From contig JACQSK010000005.1 of the NCBI GenBank assembly GCA_016205975.1, forward strand, positions 13,362 through 77,361: DNA of 64,000 bases. The letters are read 5' to 3'. Numbering within the stretch: position 1 is the first letter of the stretch; each line of letters starts with the position of its first letter. This document shows positions 43,214-48,059 of this stretch, piece after piece. Both the position numbers and the translations under genes were made by a program. The notes below the pieces were generated by a model. It did no database searches, had not been told where the DNA came from, and saw only the letters and a program-made list of their open reading frames with translations. Source of the stretch: Candidatus Uhrbacteria bacterium. GTDB lineage: Bacteria; Patescibacteriota; Patescibacteriia; UBA9934; GWF2-40-263.

Positions 43214-43741
43214 TCCGAGGATCTGTCTGTAAGCCGAATTTTGTCTGCCCTGATTTCTCAGAGGAGATGGCAATCTATCTAGGCCGTCCATTGCTGGAGG
43301 GCTCAAGCGAGCTACCAAATTTGCTCTTTCACCGGACGAGGGTTTACCACACTCCATGTCACCATGGAGCGAAAGATGTAGCCGATTACTCGACATCACC
43401 TCACTTTTCACGTTTCGTTCTGCACAGCAGAACGACCCTGAGCCTGTCGAAGGGTGCACCCCTCGACGTTGCTCAAGATAGTTTTGCTGCGCAAAACTAG
43501 TATTGTCTCTGTGGCACTTTCCCTAGGCTTTGAGTCAGGAGTCATGGAACAGATTTCTCCAATTCCGCGAGTCCCAATCCTTATACCTGGTCGCCGTTAG
43601 CGACTCTCTTTGGTGTTGTGTCTTGCGACCCAACAGGTGTTCGGACTTTCCTCAATGAATGGAAGTTGGAGACCGACGTCCAATTCCCAACGTCTAACAT
43701 CCAACTTCCATTCATCGTAGCCATCCGACAGTCCTCAGACC
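43214..43741 (-). ncRNA. rnpB: RNase P RNA, bacterial type A, with expanded P3
   Basis: On the minus strand: GAGGAAAGTCCGAACACC (P4 5' strand), GGTAAACCC...GGTGAAAGAGCAAA, GCTTGAGCC...AGCAATGGACGGCCTAGATAGATTGCC and ACAAAATTCGGCTTACAGACAG (P4 3' strand) align motif-for-motif with E. coli M1 RNA, with GUCCGGG/CCCGGC to GUCCGAA/UUCGGC covariation. P1 5' GGTCTGAGGACTGTC pairs with the 3' end. A 63-nt P3 hairpin is present. Ends are approximate (±5 nt). Confidence 0.85.
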
Positions 43742-43791: not shown

Positions 43792-45213
43792 GTGAGGCGT
43801 ATGAAGCGATCTGAACTGGCTTTTACCCTTGCCCTTGTCCCATTTGATTTTTTTGCTCTCATCGCCGCCTCCACGGTCGCATTCTTTGCTCGTTATCTTC
43901 CCGCCTTCACCCAGATCCGTCCTGTCATTTTTAATTTGAACCTTGAGAGCTACCTGGCCGTCGCGGCCCCGACCGCGATTCTGTTCCTCCTGGTTTTTGC
44001 TCTCACCGGCTTGTATAGCACACGGCGTTCTTCCATCGGCCGCGAGCTCTCGCACATCGCGCTCGCCTGCTCCGCATCCATGGCGCTCGTATTTGCGATC
44101 TCCTTTTTCTCGCGTGTCTTGTTCGAGTCGCGCTTCATCGCCCTTGCCGGCTGGGGCTTGGCCATCTTGTTTGTGGCGCTCGAACGTCTAGTCATGCGTG
44201 GGCTCCAGCGATCGCTCCTGCGGTTTGGCATCGGGACGCATCGCGTTGTCGTCATCGGAAAGACGTCTGCCGCCGAGGCGCTCATGGGAGAGTTCACACA
44301 AAAAAAACGTCTGGGCTTCCGAGTCGTGGGTCACTACAAGGATTTTACCAAAGCTCTCGCCAAGGAACTCCGCGACCTGAAACGGAACGATAAAATAGAC
44401 GAGATCATTCTGGCAGATCCTGAGGCTTCCCGACAGGAAACGCTCGAGATCATCGCCTTCACGGAACAGGAACACTTGGGCTTCCGCTACTGCGCCGATC
44501 TCTTTACCGCCGCGATCGGCCGCTCTGTCATCCATACCTACGCCGGCATCCCCGTGATCGAAGTACAAAAGACGCCGCTCGACGGTTGGGGAGCGATCTA
44601 CAAACGCATCTTCGACGTGGCGGCTTCCCTTCTCCTGATCCTCCTCGCCTCCCCGATCATGCTGATCACAGCGCTCGCGATCAAACTCGATTCACGTGGC
44701 CCCATCTTTTTTGCGAGACTCGACGATGGAAGTCTGTCACGACGTGTGGGTCAAGGCGGACGGCCGTTCACCTACTTTAAGTTCCGCTCCATGCGACCTG
44801 GCACGCATGCTCTGCGCTACAACGAACTCGCCGCCGCTGATACACGCCACGGCTCGCCGCTCGTGAAGATCAAGGACGATCCGCGCGTGACGTGTGTCGG
44901 AAAATTCATTCGCAAATTTTCGATCGACGAGCTCCCTGAATTCTTCCTGGTCCTGCGCGGGCATATGAGTCTTGTCGGCCCACGCCCCCATTTACCCGAG
45001 GAAGTCGATCGATACAAACCTGAACAACGCAAGGTTCTCACGATCAAGCCTGGTATCACAGGCATGGCACAAATCTCCGGCCGTGCTGATCTCAATTTCG
45101 ACGACGAGGTGCGTCTAGACACCTACTACATTGAACACTGGAGTCCGTGGCTCGACCTCTATATTCTCCTCAAAACTCCTCTGGTTGTTCTCTTTGGAAG
45201 AGGTGCATCTTGA
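43792..45213 (+). CDS. polyprenyl-phosphate hexose-1-phosphate transferase (bacterial sugar transferase, WbaP/CpsE-type priming enzyme)
   Basis: C-terminal [30 protein letters not shown] (PF02397 signature); N-terminal TM bundle; 473 aa. Apparent leaderless start (extended -10 TGATAGACT ends 8 nt before ATG). Confidence 0.85.
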
Positions 45214-46199
45214 GAGCGTAACCATCACAATGTTCCAGCAGTCCCATATACGACGGCATGTTCTCGAGAGTAACCTTCTTGAACATCCGTCGTTTTGTTT
45301 TTGTGCGCAGGACACGGTGGTGTGAGAGTGTAACGTAGCCAAGAAAGTCGATGCCTTGTCCGAGCTTGCGAATCTCAACCTTGTGAGGATGGAGCGTCAA
45401 TCGTCGTTCACTCCAAAGCCATTGTTCAATGAACGGCAGGAGCCATCGGAGCTCAGCAGGATCGTTTGCAAGAATAACCGCGTCGTCTGTGTAGCGAAGA
45501 TACTGCTTCACCTGAAGTTCGTCTTTAATAAAGTGGTCGAATGCGTCCAGGTAGATATTCGCAAATAGCTGGCTGGTCAGATTCCCGATGGGAAGTCCCG
45601 TTGTGTTTGAAGTTCCTAGAGAGCACCCCCCCCCCGACGGAATTTGAAGTTGAGTAACTCCCGACGATGTCGGAGAGAAGTTGTTCGGCTCTCCCCCTTC
45701 CCAAGGGGGAGCTGGAAGAGGTTGCCGTTGCCAGCTTCTTGTACAAAATGTTCATCAAAATCTCGTGATCCACCGAATCAAAAAACTTCCTGATATCGAA
45801 CTTGAGCGCCCAGCAAGGTCTCGTGTTGTTTCGACTTACCTGACGAGTGAACTGCTCTAAACGGTCAACCGCTGCATGTGTCCCCTTCCTTGTTCGACAC
45901 GAATAACTGTCGAAAATAAACGAACGGTCAAACACCGGATACAACACTCGATACACTGCATGGTGTACCAATCGGTCACGGACGGTTGCTTTGTGGATGA
46001 TCCGATGTTTGGGATCAAAAATGTGGAAACGATGGTAAGAGCCATGACGATACCGGCCATTAAGATCGTCGTGAAGCAAGAAGACGTTGTCCTCCAGGTG
46101 TCGTTCAAACTCCTGGACGTCCTGCCTCGACCGCTTGCCACGTCGAAACTCTCGCCAGGCGGCAAAGAGATTCTCTAAGGAAATGATTTGATTGAACAT
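45170..46199 (-). CDS. diversity-generating retroelement reverse transcriptase (bRT-like), interrupted by a frameshift at a C10 tract (45626-45635)
   Basis: N-terminal ORF (46199-45525) carries RT motifs 1-3: FDPKHRIIHKATVRDRLVHHAVY, FDSYSCRTRKGTHAAVDRL, FDIRKFFDSVDHEIL. The second frame, open from 45751, carries motifs 4-5: GLPIGNLTSQLFANIYLDAFDHFIKDELQVKQYLRYTDDAVIL. This is near-identical in pattern to Bordetella phage bRT (GLPLGNVTSQLFANVYL...YLRYVDDFLLL). The two halves are in different frames. Confidence 0.85.
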
Positions 46200-46535
46200 A
46201 TGAACTCAACTCCAGCATTTCAAAAATCTTATGACTTCTATAAGAACCTCTATCTCAACCTTCGGCAGATTCCCAAACGGGATCGGTTCACCTGGGGCGA
46301 GAGGTGTGAAACATTGGCTATAGACCTTCTCTCAAGACTTTCAAAGGCAACCTATGCTCCACGCCAAATACAACGTTTGTCTTTGCTAGAGGCAAGTGAT
46401 CTCATCGATCGATTAAAAATTTACCTCCGACTTGGGGCTGATCTAAAAATTCTTGACCAAAAGAAATACTTCTCCAGAGTAAGTGAGCTGATCGAGCTTG
46501 GAAAAATGATCGGGGGATGGCTCAAGACTGTCTAG
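46200..46535 (+). CDS. avd: DGR accessory variability determinant (Avd, four-helix-bundle protein)
   Basis: 111-115 aa; YDFYKNLYLNLRQIPKRDRFTWGERCETLAIDLLSRL ... ELIELGKMIGGWLKTV matches the bAvd pattern (Y..L...IPK..R...L, C-terminal IGr.LGsWI). The ATG at 46200 abuts the RT ATG (CATATG at 46197-46202). Track start is a TTG at 46188. Confidence 0.7.
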   Translation: MNSTPAFQKSYDFYKNLYLNLRQIPKRDRFTWGERCETLAIDLLSRLSKATYAPRQIQRLSLLEASDLIDRLKIYLRLGADLKILDQKKYFSRVSELIELGKMIGGWLKTV

Positions 46536-46540
46536 AACAG

Positions 46541-46666
46541 CCGAGGAGGCGGAAGCCCACGTTGTCGTTGGGATTGTTCGACCAGTTCCTGTTCACGCTA
46601 GCGAGCCCACCGTTGTCACGGTTGCCGACGATCACGCGGTTGTCAGAACCGTAGGCGTTTTGGCTC
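46541..46666 (-). repeat. DGR template repeat (TR); sense strand = minus
   Basis: 126 bp near-identical to 46963-47088. On the minus strand it encodes ...AYGSDNRVIVGNRDNGGLASVNRNWSNNPNDNVGFRLLG, with AAC/AAT (Asn) codons at the positions that differ in the VR. Confidence 0.85.
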
Positions 46667-46952
46667 TCGCCTCCTCATTGTCCTTGTCCATCTATACGCA
46701 CTACATAAAGGTAACTAGTCCCTCATGCTGAAAGCCAAGCTAGGCTCACTGTTGCCCCAAGGCAACCTCTGTTTGGCGGCAGGATTTTCATCCACCCGCT
46801 CCAGACAAGGACAAGCAGTTCTCTTCGTATCCCTAAACTTAGGGAGAAGCGGCGACCCATGGCCTTAACACATGGGTGCACGAGCCAACTTCAACCGCAT
46901 TGTATCAAAAAGAAAAAGGATCCAAGGTTCCAAGAACCAAGGATCCAAGCGT

Positions 46953-47867
46953 CTAGAGAACGCCGAGGAGGCGGAAGCCCACGCCGCCGTTGGGAACGTC
47001 CGACCAGTCCCTGCGCACGCTAGCGAGCCCACCGTTGCCACGGCCGCCGACGATCACGCGGCTGCCCGAACCGTAGGCGCTTTCGGTCCATTCCCACGAG
47101 GCCGTGGCGCCGAGGTCAGGGAACTCCGTTCCATGGAGTCGGTTGAGCTCCAACAGGATGTTCCCGAAGAAGTTCCACTCCTCCGCGGTGAGCGGCCGCA
47201 CCGCCGCCTTCTTGAGACCCCAGAGCTGAGCCGTCAGCGGGCACAGGGTGGCGCGCAGATGATCCCAGGAAACCCTAAAACGGGACTGGAGGTTGAGCTC
47301 GCGGGTGAGCCGATCGTCCCCGTATCCCTCGGGGTCGTTCCAGTCGGGCTTCCTGATGAGCTCAGCCACGACCCACCGTCCGGGCAGGGGGTGGCGCTTG
47401 ATGAGGCTCGCATCGATGTGCTGACCCAAGTCGGAGCGGATCCATGTGTTGGAGTAGACATCCTGGGTGATGGCCGCGGGAAGGAGGATCGGGAGCAAGC
47501 TCCCGTCGTCGATCCAGCCGCGAGTCTTCGTGCTGATGCGCGGAAGAGCCGGCACCACGACCTCAAGCGCCCCGAACTTCTGGGCGTAGAACTCGCTCCA
47601 GAACACACGGGGGTCACCCGCGATCCGACGCAGGAGCGCCTCGGTCACGGAGACACTGAGCGGATCTTCCACCGACGCCTTGGACGCGAGCTGGGTCTTC
47701 ACCCAGGCATCGAGCATCGCGGGGTCGATCAGCCCGCGAGCGAGCGCTTCGCCCAGCGGCATGGTGACCGCATAAGCGCCGAGCAGGCCGCCCAGACCGG
47801 CGGGGCTGATGTGGTCGCGCCTACGCAGGATCTCGTCGATCCAGGAAGGCAACCCTTCGAGTGCCAT
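46953..47867 (-). CDS. DGR target protein with C-terminal FGE-sulfatase / C-type-lectin-fold variable domain; no signal peptide
   Basis: C-terminal PLTAEEWNF...WEWTESAYGSGSRVIVGG...GFRLL matches the FGE-like (PF03781) DGR-target pattern (LPTEAEWEYA ... GNVWEW ... GFR). Start ATG 47867 has RBS AAGGAG-6nt; track start 47900 is upstream. Confidence 0.8.
   Translation of the reverse strand: MALEGLPSWIDEILRRRDHISPAGLGGLLGAYAVTMPLGEALARGLIDPAMLDAWVKTQLASKASVEDPLSVSVTEALLRRIAGDPRVFWSEFYAQKFGALEVVVPALPRISTKTRGWIDDGSLLPILLPAAITQDVYSNTWIRSDLGQHIDASLIKRHPLPGRWVVAELIRKPDWNDPEGYGDDRLTRELNLQSRFRVSWDHLRATLCPLTAQLWGLKKAAVRPLTAEEWNFFGNILLELNRLHGTEFPDLGATASWEWTESAYGSGSRVIVGGRGNGGLASVRRDWSDVPNGGVGFRLLGVL
46963..47088 (-). 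repeat. DGR variable repeat (VR) at the 3' end of the target gene
   Basis: About 15 of ~18 mismatches to the TR occur where the TR sense strand has A (plus-strand T to C/A/G). Encodes ...AYGSGSRVIVGGRGNGGLASVRRDWSDVPNGGVGFRLLGVL*. The GC-rich identical 3' block GGGCTTCCGCCTCCTCGGC is IMH-like. Confidence 0.85.
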
Positions 47868-48059
47868 AATCTTCTCCTTCCCTTGCGACTCTCCCACCAC
47901 TCTTTACAGACGGATTGGTAGGTGCTTGCAAAGGACGAACGCACACGGTTCCGCCGTGCCGGTGTGAGTACAAAACCGGGGATTTCCGGTTGTGCAAACG
48001 ACTGGAGAATATACTCCTGTTTGGCGGAAAAGTCAAGAATTGCTAGGATGGCTCCACGT

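What the first reader, a model, noticed from the sequence alone, without database searches (positions are those of the whole stretch)
45170..47900. Complete diversity-generating retroelement (RT + Avd + TR/VR + FGE-fold target) inserted between the rnpB/priming-transferase region and a GT4 block
Four DGR parts are visible directly.

(i) Reverse transcriptase: a bRT-like RT (GLPIGNLTSQLFANIYLDAF...YLRYTDDAVIL, FRDRLVHHAV, FDIRKFFDSVDHEIL).

(ii) Avd: a 111-aa four-helix Avd-like protein.

(iii) Repeats:
- two 126-bp repeats, 46541-46666 (TR) and 46963-47088 (VR);
- they differ at ~18 positions, about 15 of which are A in the TR sense (minus) strand;
- the TR encodes Asn codons (GNRDNGG, NRNWSNNPNDN) where the VR encodes GGRGNGG, RRDWSDVPNGG.

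(iv) Target:
- the VR forms the last ~40 codons of a 304-aa target with an FGE-sulfatase/C-type-lectin-fold C-terminus (PLTAEEWNF...WEWTESAYG...GFRLL);
- the target has no signal peptide, so it is a cytoplasmic or non-classically exported binding protein rather than a typical surface receptor.

Two identical GC-rich 3' blocks (GGGCTTCCGCCTCCTCGGC) are IMH-like.
Basis: partly seen in the sequence, partly recalled or inferred. Interest (0 to 1): 0.85.

Follow-up and report, generated by a model that had tools for sequence, protein, structure and literature searches.

The report
Retroelement whose reverse transcriptase has a slippery switch
This is a genuine protein-diversifying retroelement (DGR) of a groundwater Candidatus Uhrbacteria bacterium. 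Its reverse-transcriptase gene is broken by a run of ten G's that sits at the same spot, varies in length and flips the reading frame in dozens of relatives, so the mutator appears to have a built-in on/off switch.

Summary
The four DGR parts are real.
- Template and variable repeats differ at 15 positions in the 117-nt core, 14 of them template adenines.
- The Avd accessory protein scores above the Pfam cut-off.
- The reverse transcriptase (RT) is closest to the Bordetella phage DGR enzyme.
- The 304-aa target models with an FGE/C-type-lectin fold.

Avd lies on the opposite strand. That is the published "B3" layout typical of candidate-phyla-radiation (CPR) DGRs, so the element itself is ordinary.

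A G10 run (45626-45635) shifts the catalytic half into the +1 frame; G9 would restore it.

Across fetched relatives, a repeat sits at exactly this site: poly-G of 6-12, or (GA)7-9.
- 29 of 39 repeat-bearing RT variants are out of frame.
- 0 of 25 repeat-free RTs are out of frame.
- The shifted C-terminal halves stay open and under purifying selection.
- Several otherwise identical or near-identical contigs differ only in repeat length, sometimes in frame versus out of frame.

Best reading: a slippage-prone repeat gates RT expression. This is heritable phase variation, possibly with leaky RNA-level or ribosomal rescue. I found no published report of it. The window's own tract length rests on a single assembly.

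The parts
46953..47867 (-). Target (variable protein) gene, 304 aa. An alternative GTG start at 47900 would give 315 aa. The C-terminal half has an FGE/C-type-lectin fold; the N-terminal half is helical with unknown function.
46962..47078 (-). Variable repeat (VR) core, the last ~39 codons of the target. The repeat as detected extends to 47088.
46962..46982 (-). IMH-like GC-rich block at the 3' end of the VR. It is identical to the block at the TR 3' end; the sequence diverges immediately downstream.
   Evidence: 2 matches in the window, 0.01 expected by chance.
46918..46946 (-). Inverted repeat (hairpin or cruciform) just 3' of the VR, followed by a T-run. It is either the target-gene terminator, the DGR hairpin, or both.
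   Evidence: DNA fold of 46900-46985: -15.3 kcal/mol, z = -4.6. Identical sequence in relative L006. Absent after the TR.
46898..46905 (-). Conserved -10-like box (ATACAAT / TATAAT / TATACT in relatives), the putative start of the TR transcript.
   Evidence: Conserved columns in the 23-locus alignment. Inference only.
46678..46886 (-). Conserved structured non-coding RNA domain immediately 5' of the TR (six helices).
   Evidence: 33 pairs; 92.9% of cells paired against 36-52% for slid controls; covariation score 0.719 against 0.09-0.17; 0 of 500 shuffles reach it. No Rfam match.
46540..46656 (-). Template repeat (TR) core; the repeat as detected extends to 46666. It is rich in AAC codons. Its 3' end pairs with the 5' flank at about 46662-46692.
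   Evidence: Duplex of -36.8 kcal/mol with compensatory changes in L034, L037, L043 and L061.
46200..46535 (+). avd accessory gene (111 aa; an upstream TTG at 46188 is possible). It lies on the opposite strand, between the TR and the RT, and its start overlaps the RT start.
   Evidence: Pfam PF22296 bAvd 54.8 bits (cut-off 40). NCBIfam DivGenRetAVD 74.5 bits (cut-off 80). P0144 is annotated as a four-helix-bundle protein.
45636..46199 (-). RT, N-terminal part (fingers; motifs up to FDIRKFFDSVDHEIL), in frame with the ATG at 46199. As assembled, this frame runs on to a stop at 45525 (224 aa).
45626..45635 (-). G10 simple-sequence repeat inside the RT gene, where the frame changes. G9 would give one continuous 342-aa RT.
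   Evidence: It is the only G/C run of 8 or more, A/T run of 9 or more, or dinucleotide repeat of 6 or more units in the 64-kb window. A repeat occupies the same site in the repeat-bearing relatives tallied here.
45170..45625 (-). RT, C-terminal part in the +1 frame: GLPIGNLTSQ (DGR-type motif 4), the YTDD catalytic motif and the thumb. Stop codon at 45170-45172.
   Evidence: Aligns to bRT residues 177-284. The frame stays open for 141 codons from the PIGN motif.

Best explanation
The locus is a chromosomal DGR of a Candidatus Uhrbacteria (Patescibacteria/CPR) bacterium with the CPR-typical layout: target(VR) - structured RNA - TR - (avd, reverse strand) - RT.

DGR mechanism (inferred from the Bordetella phage BPP-1 paradigm):
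1. A minus-strand transcript starts after the target's terminator. It carries the structured 5' domain and the TR.
2. The RT-Avd complex copies the TR into cDNA, misincorporating opposite adenines.
3. The cDNA replaces the VR, rewriting about a dozen codons on the ligand-binding face of a cytoplasmic (or non-classically exported) C-type-lectin-fold protein. That protein is encoded at the head of a surface-glycan gene cluster.

What is new: RT production is gated by a slippage-prone repeat inside the RT gene. With G10, as assembled here, translation ends in a 224-aa product that lacks the YTDD active site, so the mutator is OFF. Loss of one G (G9, the state of the closest relative, L010) gives an intact 342-aa RT, so the mutator is ON.

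I propose that replication slippage at this tract switches the DGR on and off heritably and stochastically (phase variation). The most common tract length is set to OFF, so only a minority of cells hypermutate at any time. RNA-polymerase or ribosome slippage on the same tract may add leaky expression from OFF alleles.

Shown versus inferred:
- Shown: all sequence features; the conserved repeat site; the association of repeat and frame state; purifying selection on the shifted half; DNA-level tract-length differences between otherwise identical or near-identical contigs of relatives.
- Inferred: switching rates, reversibility, the actual state mix in this population, and all biochemistry.
For: That it is a DGR:
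- Adenine-specific TR/VR differences.
- The fused RT's best PDB match is the BPP-1 bRT, 8ub7 (E = 8e-45), against 1e-13 or weaker for group II intron RTs and chains deposited as retron-type RTs. It carries LPIGNLTSQ and YTDD.
- Avd and a CLec/FGE-fold target.
- The TR-(avd)-RT layout is architecture B3, '90% of the CPR set' (PMC5758913).

That the RT is gated by a repeat:
1. G10 is the only such repeat in 64 kb. In 32 repeat-bearing loci (203.5 kb) only 3 comparable runs lie outside the RT site.
2. The same site carries G6-G12 or (GA)7-9 in relatives. In-frame homologs read GGG(G) or RERERE there, so what is conserved is the DNA property, not the peptide. A distant RT (38% identity) from a 39%-GC contig also has G10 there, out of frame.
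3. Frame state: 29 of 39 repeat-bearing variants are out of frame against 0 of 25 repeat-free RTs (p = 5e-10). The in-frame fraction, 10 of 39, does not differ from 1/3.
4. In every out-of-frame locus that reaches the 3' end of the gene (20 of 21 tested; the L060 contig ends first) the C-terminal frame stays open for 136-156 codons, against 135-154 in in-frame loci. OFF-OFF pairs give pN 0.10-0.32 against pS 0.57-0.98, and dN/dS 0.06-0.17 where computable.
5. All of these loci that include the region, ON or OFF, show adenine-biased TR/VR divergence.
6. Same-lineage pairs that differ only in the tract:
   - L054 (G8, in frame) vs L061 (G10, out): 972 nt, 0 mismatches.
   - L059 vs L069: a 1-nt difference, 772 nt, 0 mismatches.
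   - L112/L113 (G8, in frame) vs L109-L111 (G9, out): the tract is the only indel in 2.9 kb at 98.4-98.9% identity.
   - L116 (G8) vs L118 (contig starting with a run of 10): 977 nt, 0 mismatches.
   - L136 (GA)8 vs L137 (GA)7: 1055 nt, 0 mismatches.
   - In the P0148 lineage, four contigs have a 229-aa truncated RT ORF; one has an uninterrupted ORF of at least 311 aa.
7. Tract states are reproduced by independent assemblies of the same lineage (L109/L110/L111; L129/L130/L131).
8. Truly decayed cassettes look different: large deletions or a transposase insertion.
9. Roux et al. 2021 found lower-than-average activity for the Patescibacteria-restricted DGR clade 2 (PMC8144416).
Against: - For this window's own strain only one assembly covers the tract. 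The Logan contigs stop at 46074, so G10 here could be a miscalled G9.
- No reads were available, so within-population tract heterogeneity and VR variability are untested. The three independent contigs of this strain carry an identical VR.
- Some same-strain pairs come from 2-3x coverage contigs.
- Among out-of-frame variants the +1 state is over-represented (23 vs 6, p = 0.002; lineages are not independent). Pure random phase variation does not predict this; directional recoding would.
- A few out-of-frame tracts are short (G6, G7) and would switch slowly.
- Phase variation has not been described in Patescibacteria in the literature I could search.
Confidence: 0.6

Rival explanations
1. Programmed recoding is the main route to full-length RT. 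The out-of-frame tract is the normal genotype. A fixed fraction of transcripts (RNA-polymerase slippage on a repeat about as long as the 9-bp RNA-DNA hybrid) or of ribosomes (+1 on GGG-G, -2 on GAGAG) restores the frame, giving constitutively low RT levels, as in many IS transposases.
For: - The slippery site keeps a fixed position.
- The +1 state dominates among out-of-frame variants (23 vs 6).
- G10 is nearly always the out-of-frame length (13 of 14 G10 tracts with a readable frame; my tally).
- The shifted half is under strong purifying selection across lineages whose synonymous sites are saturated.
Against: - Ten variants are simply in frame and six need the opposite shift.
- No conserved stimulatory element or adjacent stop codon is evident.
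- DNA-level length differences that toggle the frame exist within lineages.
- Poly-G and (GA)n would need different slippage chemistries.
Confidence: 0.2
2. Assembly or sequencing error at a homopolymer: the true sequence in this organism is G9, and the DGR is simply intact and ordinary.
For: - Only one assembly covers 45626-45635.
- The closest relative, L010, has the same flanks with G9, in frame.
- Contigs of relatives tend to break at the tract (L006, L033, L118).
Against: - The same out-of-frame states recur in independent assemblies from different projects and assemblers.
- All six (GA)n variants are out of frame, and (GA)n is not homopolymer-error-prone.
- 0 of 25 repeat-free RTs are out of frame.
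- Even if this window were really G9, the tract would remain a conserved hypermutable site.
Confidence: 0.1
3. A decaying DGR: the frameshift is an inactivating mutation and the VR is frozen.
For: - Sporadic frameshifted DGR RTs have been reported as inactivation events (PMC3521204).
- Cassette loss does occur in this clade.
- The VR is identical in three contigs of this strain.
Against: - The only defect is one base in a repeat.
- The 141-codon C-terminal frame is intact, and dN/dS to relatives is 0.09-0.17.
- The same 'defect' at the same site in 29 variants, with no secondary lesions, is not how pseudogenes look. The truly decayed relatives show large deletions or an IS insertion.
Confidence: 0.05

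Closest known systems
CPR-type DGRs, architecture B3, TR-(avd)-RT (Wu et al. 2018, PMC5758913); DGR clade 2 of Roux et al. 2021 (PMC8144416)
   Same: Gene order and inverted avd; Patescibacteria host; adenine-specific TR/VR divergence; VR at the 3' end of a C-type-lectin-fold target of otherwise unknown function; chromosomal, with no phage genes nearby.
   Different: No paper I could search mentions a simple-sequence repeat or a recurrent frame change inside the RT gene. The ~210-nt covarying RNA domain 5' of the TR is also not in Rfam.
Bordetella phage BPP-1 DGR (mtd-avd-TR-brt); bRT-Avd-RNA complex, PDB 8ub7
   Same: The RT is the closest solved relative (E = 8e-45). Shared features: [LIV]GxxxSQ and YxDD motifs, Avd, a GC-rich IMH-like block, a hairpin after the VR, a duplex closing the TR (compare the 'cPRT Stop' duplex, bioRxiv 10.1101/2023.10.23.563531), and a CLec-fold target.
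   Different: - Cellular, not phage.
- avd is inverted, so the segment 3' of the TR is antisense avd.
- The RT has a ~26-residue longer linker before motif 4, and that linker holds the repeat.
- The target has no obvious export signal.
- Substitutions are mostly A>G.
Simple-sequence-repeat contingency loci (phase variation by slipped-strand mispairing; for example poly-G tracts in Campylobacter, Neisseria, Helicobacter)
   Same: An intragenic poly-G or dinucleotide repeat; length differences between otherwise identical sequences toggle the reading frame; about one third are in frame; the downstream ORF is preserved.
   Different: Classic cases switch surface structures or restriction-modification genes in host-associated pathogens. 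Here the switched gene is the engine of a targeted hypermutation system, in free-living or episymbiotic groundwater CPR bacteria. Switching rate and reversibility are unmeasured.
Slippage-dependent expression of mobile-element enzymes (IS3/IS1 transposases) and poly(A)-tract rescue in endosymbionts
   Same: An enzyme that is hazardous or only occasionally needed is split over two frames at a slippery run. The full-length product depends on slippage.
   Different: Those sites are short heptamers or A/T runs with a fixed shift direction and stimulatory structures. Here the tract length and the required shift vary between close relatives.

Membership tests
Diversity-generating retroelement (DGR) | RT belongs to the DGR clade rather than to group II intron or retron RTs | tested here: met
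   The fused RT's best PDB hit is bRT 8ub7 (E = 8e-45, 157 bits). Chains deposited as retron-type RT (5hhj, 5hhl) and group II intron RTs score E = 2e-13 or weaker. It scores below the NCBIfam cut-offs for group II (130 vs 300), retron St85 (43 vs 235) and the Drt families.
Diversity-generating retroelement (DGR) | Motif 4 reads [I/L/V]GxxxSQ, and a YxDD catalytic motif is present | tested here: met
   LPIGNLTSQ and RYTDD are read directly in the +1 frame. That these motifs define DGR RTs is from my own knowledge.
Diversity-generating retroelement (DGR) | A TR/VR pair whose differences fall at TR adenines | tested here: met
   14 of 15 core differences are at TR adenines; 14 of 25 A's changed against 1 of 92 non-A bases, p = 1.3e-10.
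Diversity-generating retroelement (DGR) | The VR lies at the 3' end of a target ORF with a variation-tolerant fold (C-type lectin / FGE-like) | tested here: met
Diversity-generating retroelement (DGR) | Accessory protein Avd | tested here: met
   Pfam bAvd 54.8 bits, above the cut-off of 40. NCBIfam DivGenRetAVD 74.5 bits, just under its cut-off of 80.
Diversity-generating retroelement (DGR) | IMH at the VR end, a non-identical IMH* at the TR end, and a hairpin only after the VR | tested here: met
   An identical 21-nt GC-rich block, then divergent sequence. The hairpin (z = -4.6) occurs only after the VR. Function was not tested.
Diversity-generating retroelement (DGR) | An uninterrupted RT open reading frame | tested here: not met
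   The frame changes at G10 (45626-45635). As assembled, the product is 224 aa without YTDD.
Diversity-generating retroelement (DGR) | Ongoing diversification: variability at the population level confined to VR positions opposite TR adenines | tested here: inconclusive
   No reads were available. Three Logan contigs of the same strain have an identical VR. Across homologs, the scattered variable columns fall at the AAC-templated positions.
CPR DGR architecture B3 (Wu et al. 2018) | Core order TR-(avd)-RT with avd on the reverse strand | tested here: met
   TR 46540-46656 (-), avd 46200-46535 (+), RT 46199-45170 (-). Definition taken from PMC5758913. The same order is seen in L006.
Phase-variable contingency locus (slipped-strand mispairing) | A simple-sequence repeat inside the coding region, far beyond chance | tested here: met
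   It is the only such repeat in 64 kb. In 32 relatives only 3 comparable runs lie elsewhere in 203.5 kb.
Phase-variable contingency locus (slipped-strand mispairing) | Repeat length differs between otherwise identical genomes and toggles the frame | tested here: met
   Met in relatives: L054/L061, L112-113/L109-111, L116/L118, L136/L137, L059/L069 and the P0148 lineage. Not testable for the window's own strain, which has a single assembly.
Phase-variable contingency locus (slipped-strand mispairing) | High-frequency, reversible switching within a clonal population | not testable with these tools
   Needs read-level or single-cell data, or culture.
Programmed frameshift / transcriptional slippage gene | A conserved shift site with one conserved shift direction | tested here: inconclusive
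   The site is conserved. The states are 23 (+1), 6 (-1) and 10 in frame.
Programmed frameshift / transcriptional slippage gene | The trans-frame protein or edited mRNA is detected | not testable with these tools
   No transcriptome or proteome data.

The most novel reading that the evidence does not exclude
A whole clade of Patescibacteria DGRs, and at least one distant low-GC lineage, keeps its mutagenic reverse transcriptase behind a hypermutable poly-G or (GA)n tract. Targeted protein hypermutation would then itself be switched on and off stochastically and heritably: a contingency locus controlling an evolvability engine. This would be the first phase-variable reverse transcriptase and the first contingency locus described in the candidate phyla radiation.
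Probability: 0.5. Interest if true: 0.8.

Novelty: new variant of a known kind. Interest (0 to 1): 0.65.

Why it matters
How DGR activity is controlled is largely unknown. Survey work reports that the Patescibacteria DGR clade shows unusually low apparent activity, without an explanation.

A repeat-gated RT offers a concrete mechanism that can be checked with existing metagenomic reads. Most cells would carry an OFF allele, protecting a well-adapted variable protein and avoiding RT cost. A minority would switch ON and explore.

There are practical consequences too:
- Gene callers split these RTs, so DGR surveys that require an intact RT may under-count or mislabel them as dead.
- Tract length could be used as a read-level marker of DGR state in time series.
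- The covarying RNA domain 5' of the TR gives a handle on how the inverted-avd (B3) DGRs assemble their ribonucleoprotein.

Tried and rejected
- Sequence-level annotation of the target (Pfam, NCBIfam, PDB phmmer at E up to 10) found nothing. Only the predicted fold was informative.
- I looked for a second assembly of the window's own RT. The Logan contigs of this strain end at window 46478 or 46074, and the 224-aa N-terminal ORF is on one contig only. The G10 call could therefore not be cross-checked.
- RNAalifold on TR plus flanks across 23 loci returned no structure, because two unrelated TR/target subfamilies were mixed. I replaced it with per-locus duplex folding against mismatched controls. 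That supports the TR-closing duplex only in the window's subgroup.
- Rfam search of 46150-47100 gave only chance-level hits.
- The simple promoter/terminator scan gave nothing above shuffles.
- Paul et al. 2017 (CPR DGR survey) could not be fetched, so I cannot exclude that it mentions split RTs.
- 'Mobile insertion' reading rejected: synteny with the glycan genes is conserved in relatives.
- Group II intron or retron identity of the RT rejected.
- A second target rejected: no other IMH/VR copy in the window.

Full report
**What is in the window.**
The target protein is an exact match to a hypothetical protein of a Candidatus Uhrbacteria MAG, P0001 (HY631_01000). All 23 homologs come from Patescibacteria-type sources.

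On the minus strand, in order:
- a 304-aa gene, 46953-47867;
- a hairpin plus T-run;
- about 290 nt of non-coding DNA;
- a 117-127-nt repeat of the gene's last codons;
- an RT gene, 46199-45170.

A 111-aa gene on the plus strand (46200-46535) fills the space between the repeat and the RT. Flanking genes:
- RNase P RNA, 43214-43688;
- a Bac_transf priming glycosyltransferase;
- three GT4 glycosyltransferases;
- a DUF4012 protein;
- a DUF11 protein.

**Checking the observation.**
The two repeats are real. In the 117-nt core there are 15 differences. 14 fall on adenines of the copy nearer the RT, on the minus strand: 12 A>G, 1 A>C, 1 A>T. So 14 of 25 adenines changed against 1 of 92 other bases, p = 1.3e-10. 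The template reads GNRDNGG / NRNWSNNPNDN where the gene reads GGRGNGG / RRDWSDVPNGG.

Both copies end in the same 21-nt GC-rich block. That block occurs nowhere else in the window. The sequences then diverge, and only the gene copy is followed by an inverted repeat (fold z = -4.6).

The small plus-strand protein is an Avd: Pfam bAvd 54.8 bits against a cut-off of 40, and NCBIfam DivGenRetAVD 74.5 bits against 80.

The RT's closest solved relative by far is the Bordetella phage DGR enzyme. 8ub7 scores E = 8e-45. Group II intron RTs and chains deposited as retron-type RTs score 1e-13 or weaker.

The RT is not one ORF. The frame that starts at 46199 ends at 45525 after 224 codons. The catalytic half (GLPIGNLTSQ...RYTDD) is in the +1 frame. 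The change of frame falls at a run of ten G's, 45626-45635 on the minus strand. This is the only G/C run of 8 or more in the 64-kb window, and no A/T run of 9 or more or dinucleotide repeat of 6 or more units exists either. One G fewer gives a continuous 342-aa RT. The closest relative (L010, 83% identity) has the same flanks with G9 and is in frame.

**The tract is a conserved, variable feature of a clade.**
I fetched relatives from genome and metagenome collections, and also used Avd homologs as anchors. RTs of about 50-87% identity carry a repeat at the same place, 0-39 nt before the codons of the PIGN motif. It is poly-G of 6-12 in most, and (GA)7-9 in others.

In-frame homologs read GGG(G) or RERERE at that point. 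38 of the 112 closest full-length proteins do so, and several others show degenerate remnants. The DNA property is what is shared, not the peptide. A distant RT (38% identity) on a 39%-GC contig also has G10 there and is out of frame.

I counted distinct variants in which both halves could be read. The hand tally draws; the statistics are.

| RT class | In frame | Needs +1 | Needs -1 |
|---|---|---|---|
| With repeat (39 variants) | 10 | 23 | 6 |
| Without repeat (25) | 25 | 0 | 0 |

Fisher p = 5e-10 for repeat against frame state. The in-frame share (26%) is compatible with one third (p = 0.40).

**These are not pseudogenes.**
Twenty of the 21 out-of-frame loci tested keep an uninterrupted 136-156-codon C-terminal frame; the L060 contig ends before the stop. 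In-frame loci have 135-154 codons. Between out-of-frame pairs, non-synonymous differences are 0.10-0.32 per site, against 0.57-0.98 for synonymous sites. dN/dS is 0.06-0.17 where synonymous sites are not saturated.

All loci that include the region, in frame or not, show VR/TR pairs with 9-25 adenine-site differences and few others.

Real decay in the same clade looks different:
- deletion of TR-avd-RT right after the VR hairpin (L004/L005 against L006, otherwise about 100% identical);
- an RT reduced to a 35-codon remnant (P0163 lineage);
- an RT with large internal deletions (P0168 lineage);
- an RT cut after codon 35, with a DDE transposase gene adjacent (L139).

**The tract length differs at the DNA level within lineages.**
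- L054 (G8, in frame) vs L061 (G10, out of frame): 972 nt aligned, no mismatches, only a 2-nt indel in the run.
- L059 vs L069: 772 nt, no mismatches, one G more or less. These are low-coverage contigs.
- In the lineage sharing Avd P0159, two assemblies have G8 in frame and three have G9 out of frame. The tract is the only indel in 2.9 kb at 98.4-98.9% identity.
- L116 (G8, in frame) vs L118, a contig that starts with a run of ten: 977 nt, no mismatches.
- L136 (GA)8 vs L137 (GA)7: 1055 nt, no mismatches, one repeat unit.
- In the P0148 lineage, four contigs have a 229-aa truncated RT ORF. One has an uninterrupted ORF of at least 311 aa (gene table only).

Independent assemblies of one lineage reproduce the same tract state. 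That argues against random homopolymer error. Contigs also tend to break at the tract (L006, L033, L118).

**Interpretation.**
The element is a CPR B3-type DGR. By analogy with BPP-1, a TR-containing RNA is copied by RT-Avd with adenine misincorporation, and the cDNA replaces the VR.

The added layer is a slippage-prone repeat that decides whether a catalytically complete RT is made. The DNA-level polymorphisms and the roughly one-third in-frame share fit slipped-strand phase variation. The commonest length, G10, is out of frame in 13 of 14 readable cases. This suggests the flanks are set so that OFF is the default and ON is one step away.

Two observations keep recoding alive as a partial or alternative mechanism. 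The excess of the +1 state (23 vs 6, p = 0.002; lineages not independent) is one. The persistence of out-of-frame states across deeply diverged lineages under purifying selection is the other. The two mechanisms are not exclusive.

For this particular window, a miscalled G9 cannot be excluded, because no second assembly or reads were available. Roux et al. reported lower-than-average activity for the Patescibacteria-restricted DGR clade (PMC8144416). A mostly-OFF RT would explain that.

**Literature.**
Full-text searches paired DGR with phase variation, homopolymeric tracts, frameshift, slipped-strand mispairing, transcriptional slippage and programmed frameshift. A separate search paired Patescibacteria with contingency loci. 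None found a report of such a tract in a DGR RT. One survey noted sporadic frameshifted RTs as inactivation events (PMC3521204). The claim of novelty is limited to that extent.

**RNA features.**
Downstream of the target's terminator, and after a conserved -10-like box, lies a ~210-nt non-coding stretch 5' of the TR. It folds into six helices with strong covariation across 23 loci:
- 92.9% of cells paired, against 36-52% for slid controls;
- covariation score 0.719, against 0.09-0.17;
- no shuffle out of 500 reaches the observed score.

Invariant and frequent G-U pairs fix the strand as that of the TR and RT. There is no Rfam match.

In the window's subgroup, the 5' flank of the TR pairs with the TR's own 3' end (-36.8 kcal/mol), and four relatives show compensatory changes. 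This resembles the TR-closing 'cPRT Stop' duplex of the BPP-1 ribonucleoprotein (bioRxiv 10.1101/2023.10.23.563531).

**Verdict.**
The DGR call is right and, as a DGR, ordinary for CPR bacteria. 'Complete' and 'inserted' are not supported. The repeat-interrupted RT is a real, clade-wide and apparently undescribed feature. It most likely acts as an on/off (or strongly attenuating) switch on targeted hypermutation.

Noticed in passing
window 46678-46886 (minus strand), with a -10-like box at 46898-46905: A ~210-nt conserved non-coding stretch 5' of the TR folds into six helices with strong covariation across 23 related loci. It has no Rfam match. It is probably the 5' domain of the DGR RNA in inverted-avd (B3) DGRs.
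   Followed up: partly
window ~46662-46692 pairing with ~46533-46561 (minus strand): The 5' flank of the TR is complementary to the TR's 3' IMH-like end (-36.8 kcal/mol). L034, L037, L043 and L061 carry compensatory changes. In the second TR subfamily the matched duplexes are no better than mismatched ones.
   Followed up: partly
L004/L005/L007-L009 versus L006 (the species encoding target P0010): Contigs about 100% identical over 5.98 kb diverge right after the VR hairpin. Most lack TR, avd and all but the last ~80 nt of the RT; L006 keeps the full cassette. Both forms encode the identical VR. This is a presence/absence polymorphism of the mutator, leaving a frozen target.
   Followed up: partly
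L099-L108 (Avd P0163), L123-L128 (Avd P0168), L139 (Avd P0145): Other lineages keep avd (and, in the P0163 and P0168 lineages, a TR-sized ORF and a target-sized gene), but the RT is badly damaged. It is a 35-codon remnant beside an aldolase gene, or carries large internal deletions, or matches only codons 1-35 with a DDE_3 transposase gene adjacent.
   Followed up: partly
all repeat-bearing RT loci (tally in the full report): Among out-of-frame variants the +1 state outnumbers the -1 state 23 to 6 (p = 0.002; lineages not independent). G10 is out of frame in 13 of 14 readable cases, while G8 is mostly in frame. Simple random phase variation does not explain this.
   Followed up: partly
L088:2520-2529 (JGI contig Ga0315284_10038179, 38.7% GC): A distantly related DGR-type RT (38% identity) in a low-GC contig has a G10 run 15 nt before its MPLGNLTSQ motif and needs a +1 shift. 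The repeat-in-RT feature is therefore not confined to the Uhrbacteria-like clade.
   Followed up: no
L021 (= L084), about 750 nt into the RT: This RT is in frame at the usual G7 site but changes frame again near residue 265, close to a second G6 run.
   Followed up: no
window VR/TR and the related loci analysed: Substitutions at template adenines are strongly skewed towards G in most loci of this clade (12 of 14 in the window; often 10-15 of 15-20 in relatives) rather than spread over all three alternatives. This could be an RT property or selection on Gly/Asp/Ser/Arg codons.
   Followed up: no
alignment; e.g. L025, L029, L031, L038: The same RT clade serves two unrelated TR/target families. 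The second family has a strong GC-rich hairpin between the TR and the 3' end of avd, which the window's family lacks.
   Followed up: no
window 43214-43688 (minus strand): The RNase P RNA match spans 475 nt against a 367-position model and scores only just above the gathering threshold (108 vs 100 bits). This suggests sizeable insertions.
   Followed up: no
L014, L025, L027, L028, L031, L036, L038 (record titles): Several MAGs titled 'uncultured Gammaproteobacteria' carry RTs that are 64-69% identical to this Uhrbacteria RT, with the same poly-G tract. The taxonomic labels of those records look doubtful.
   Followed up: no
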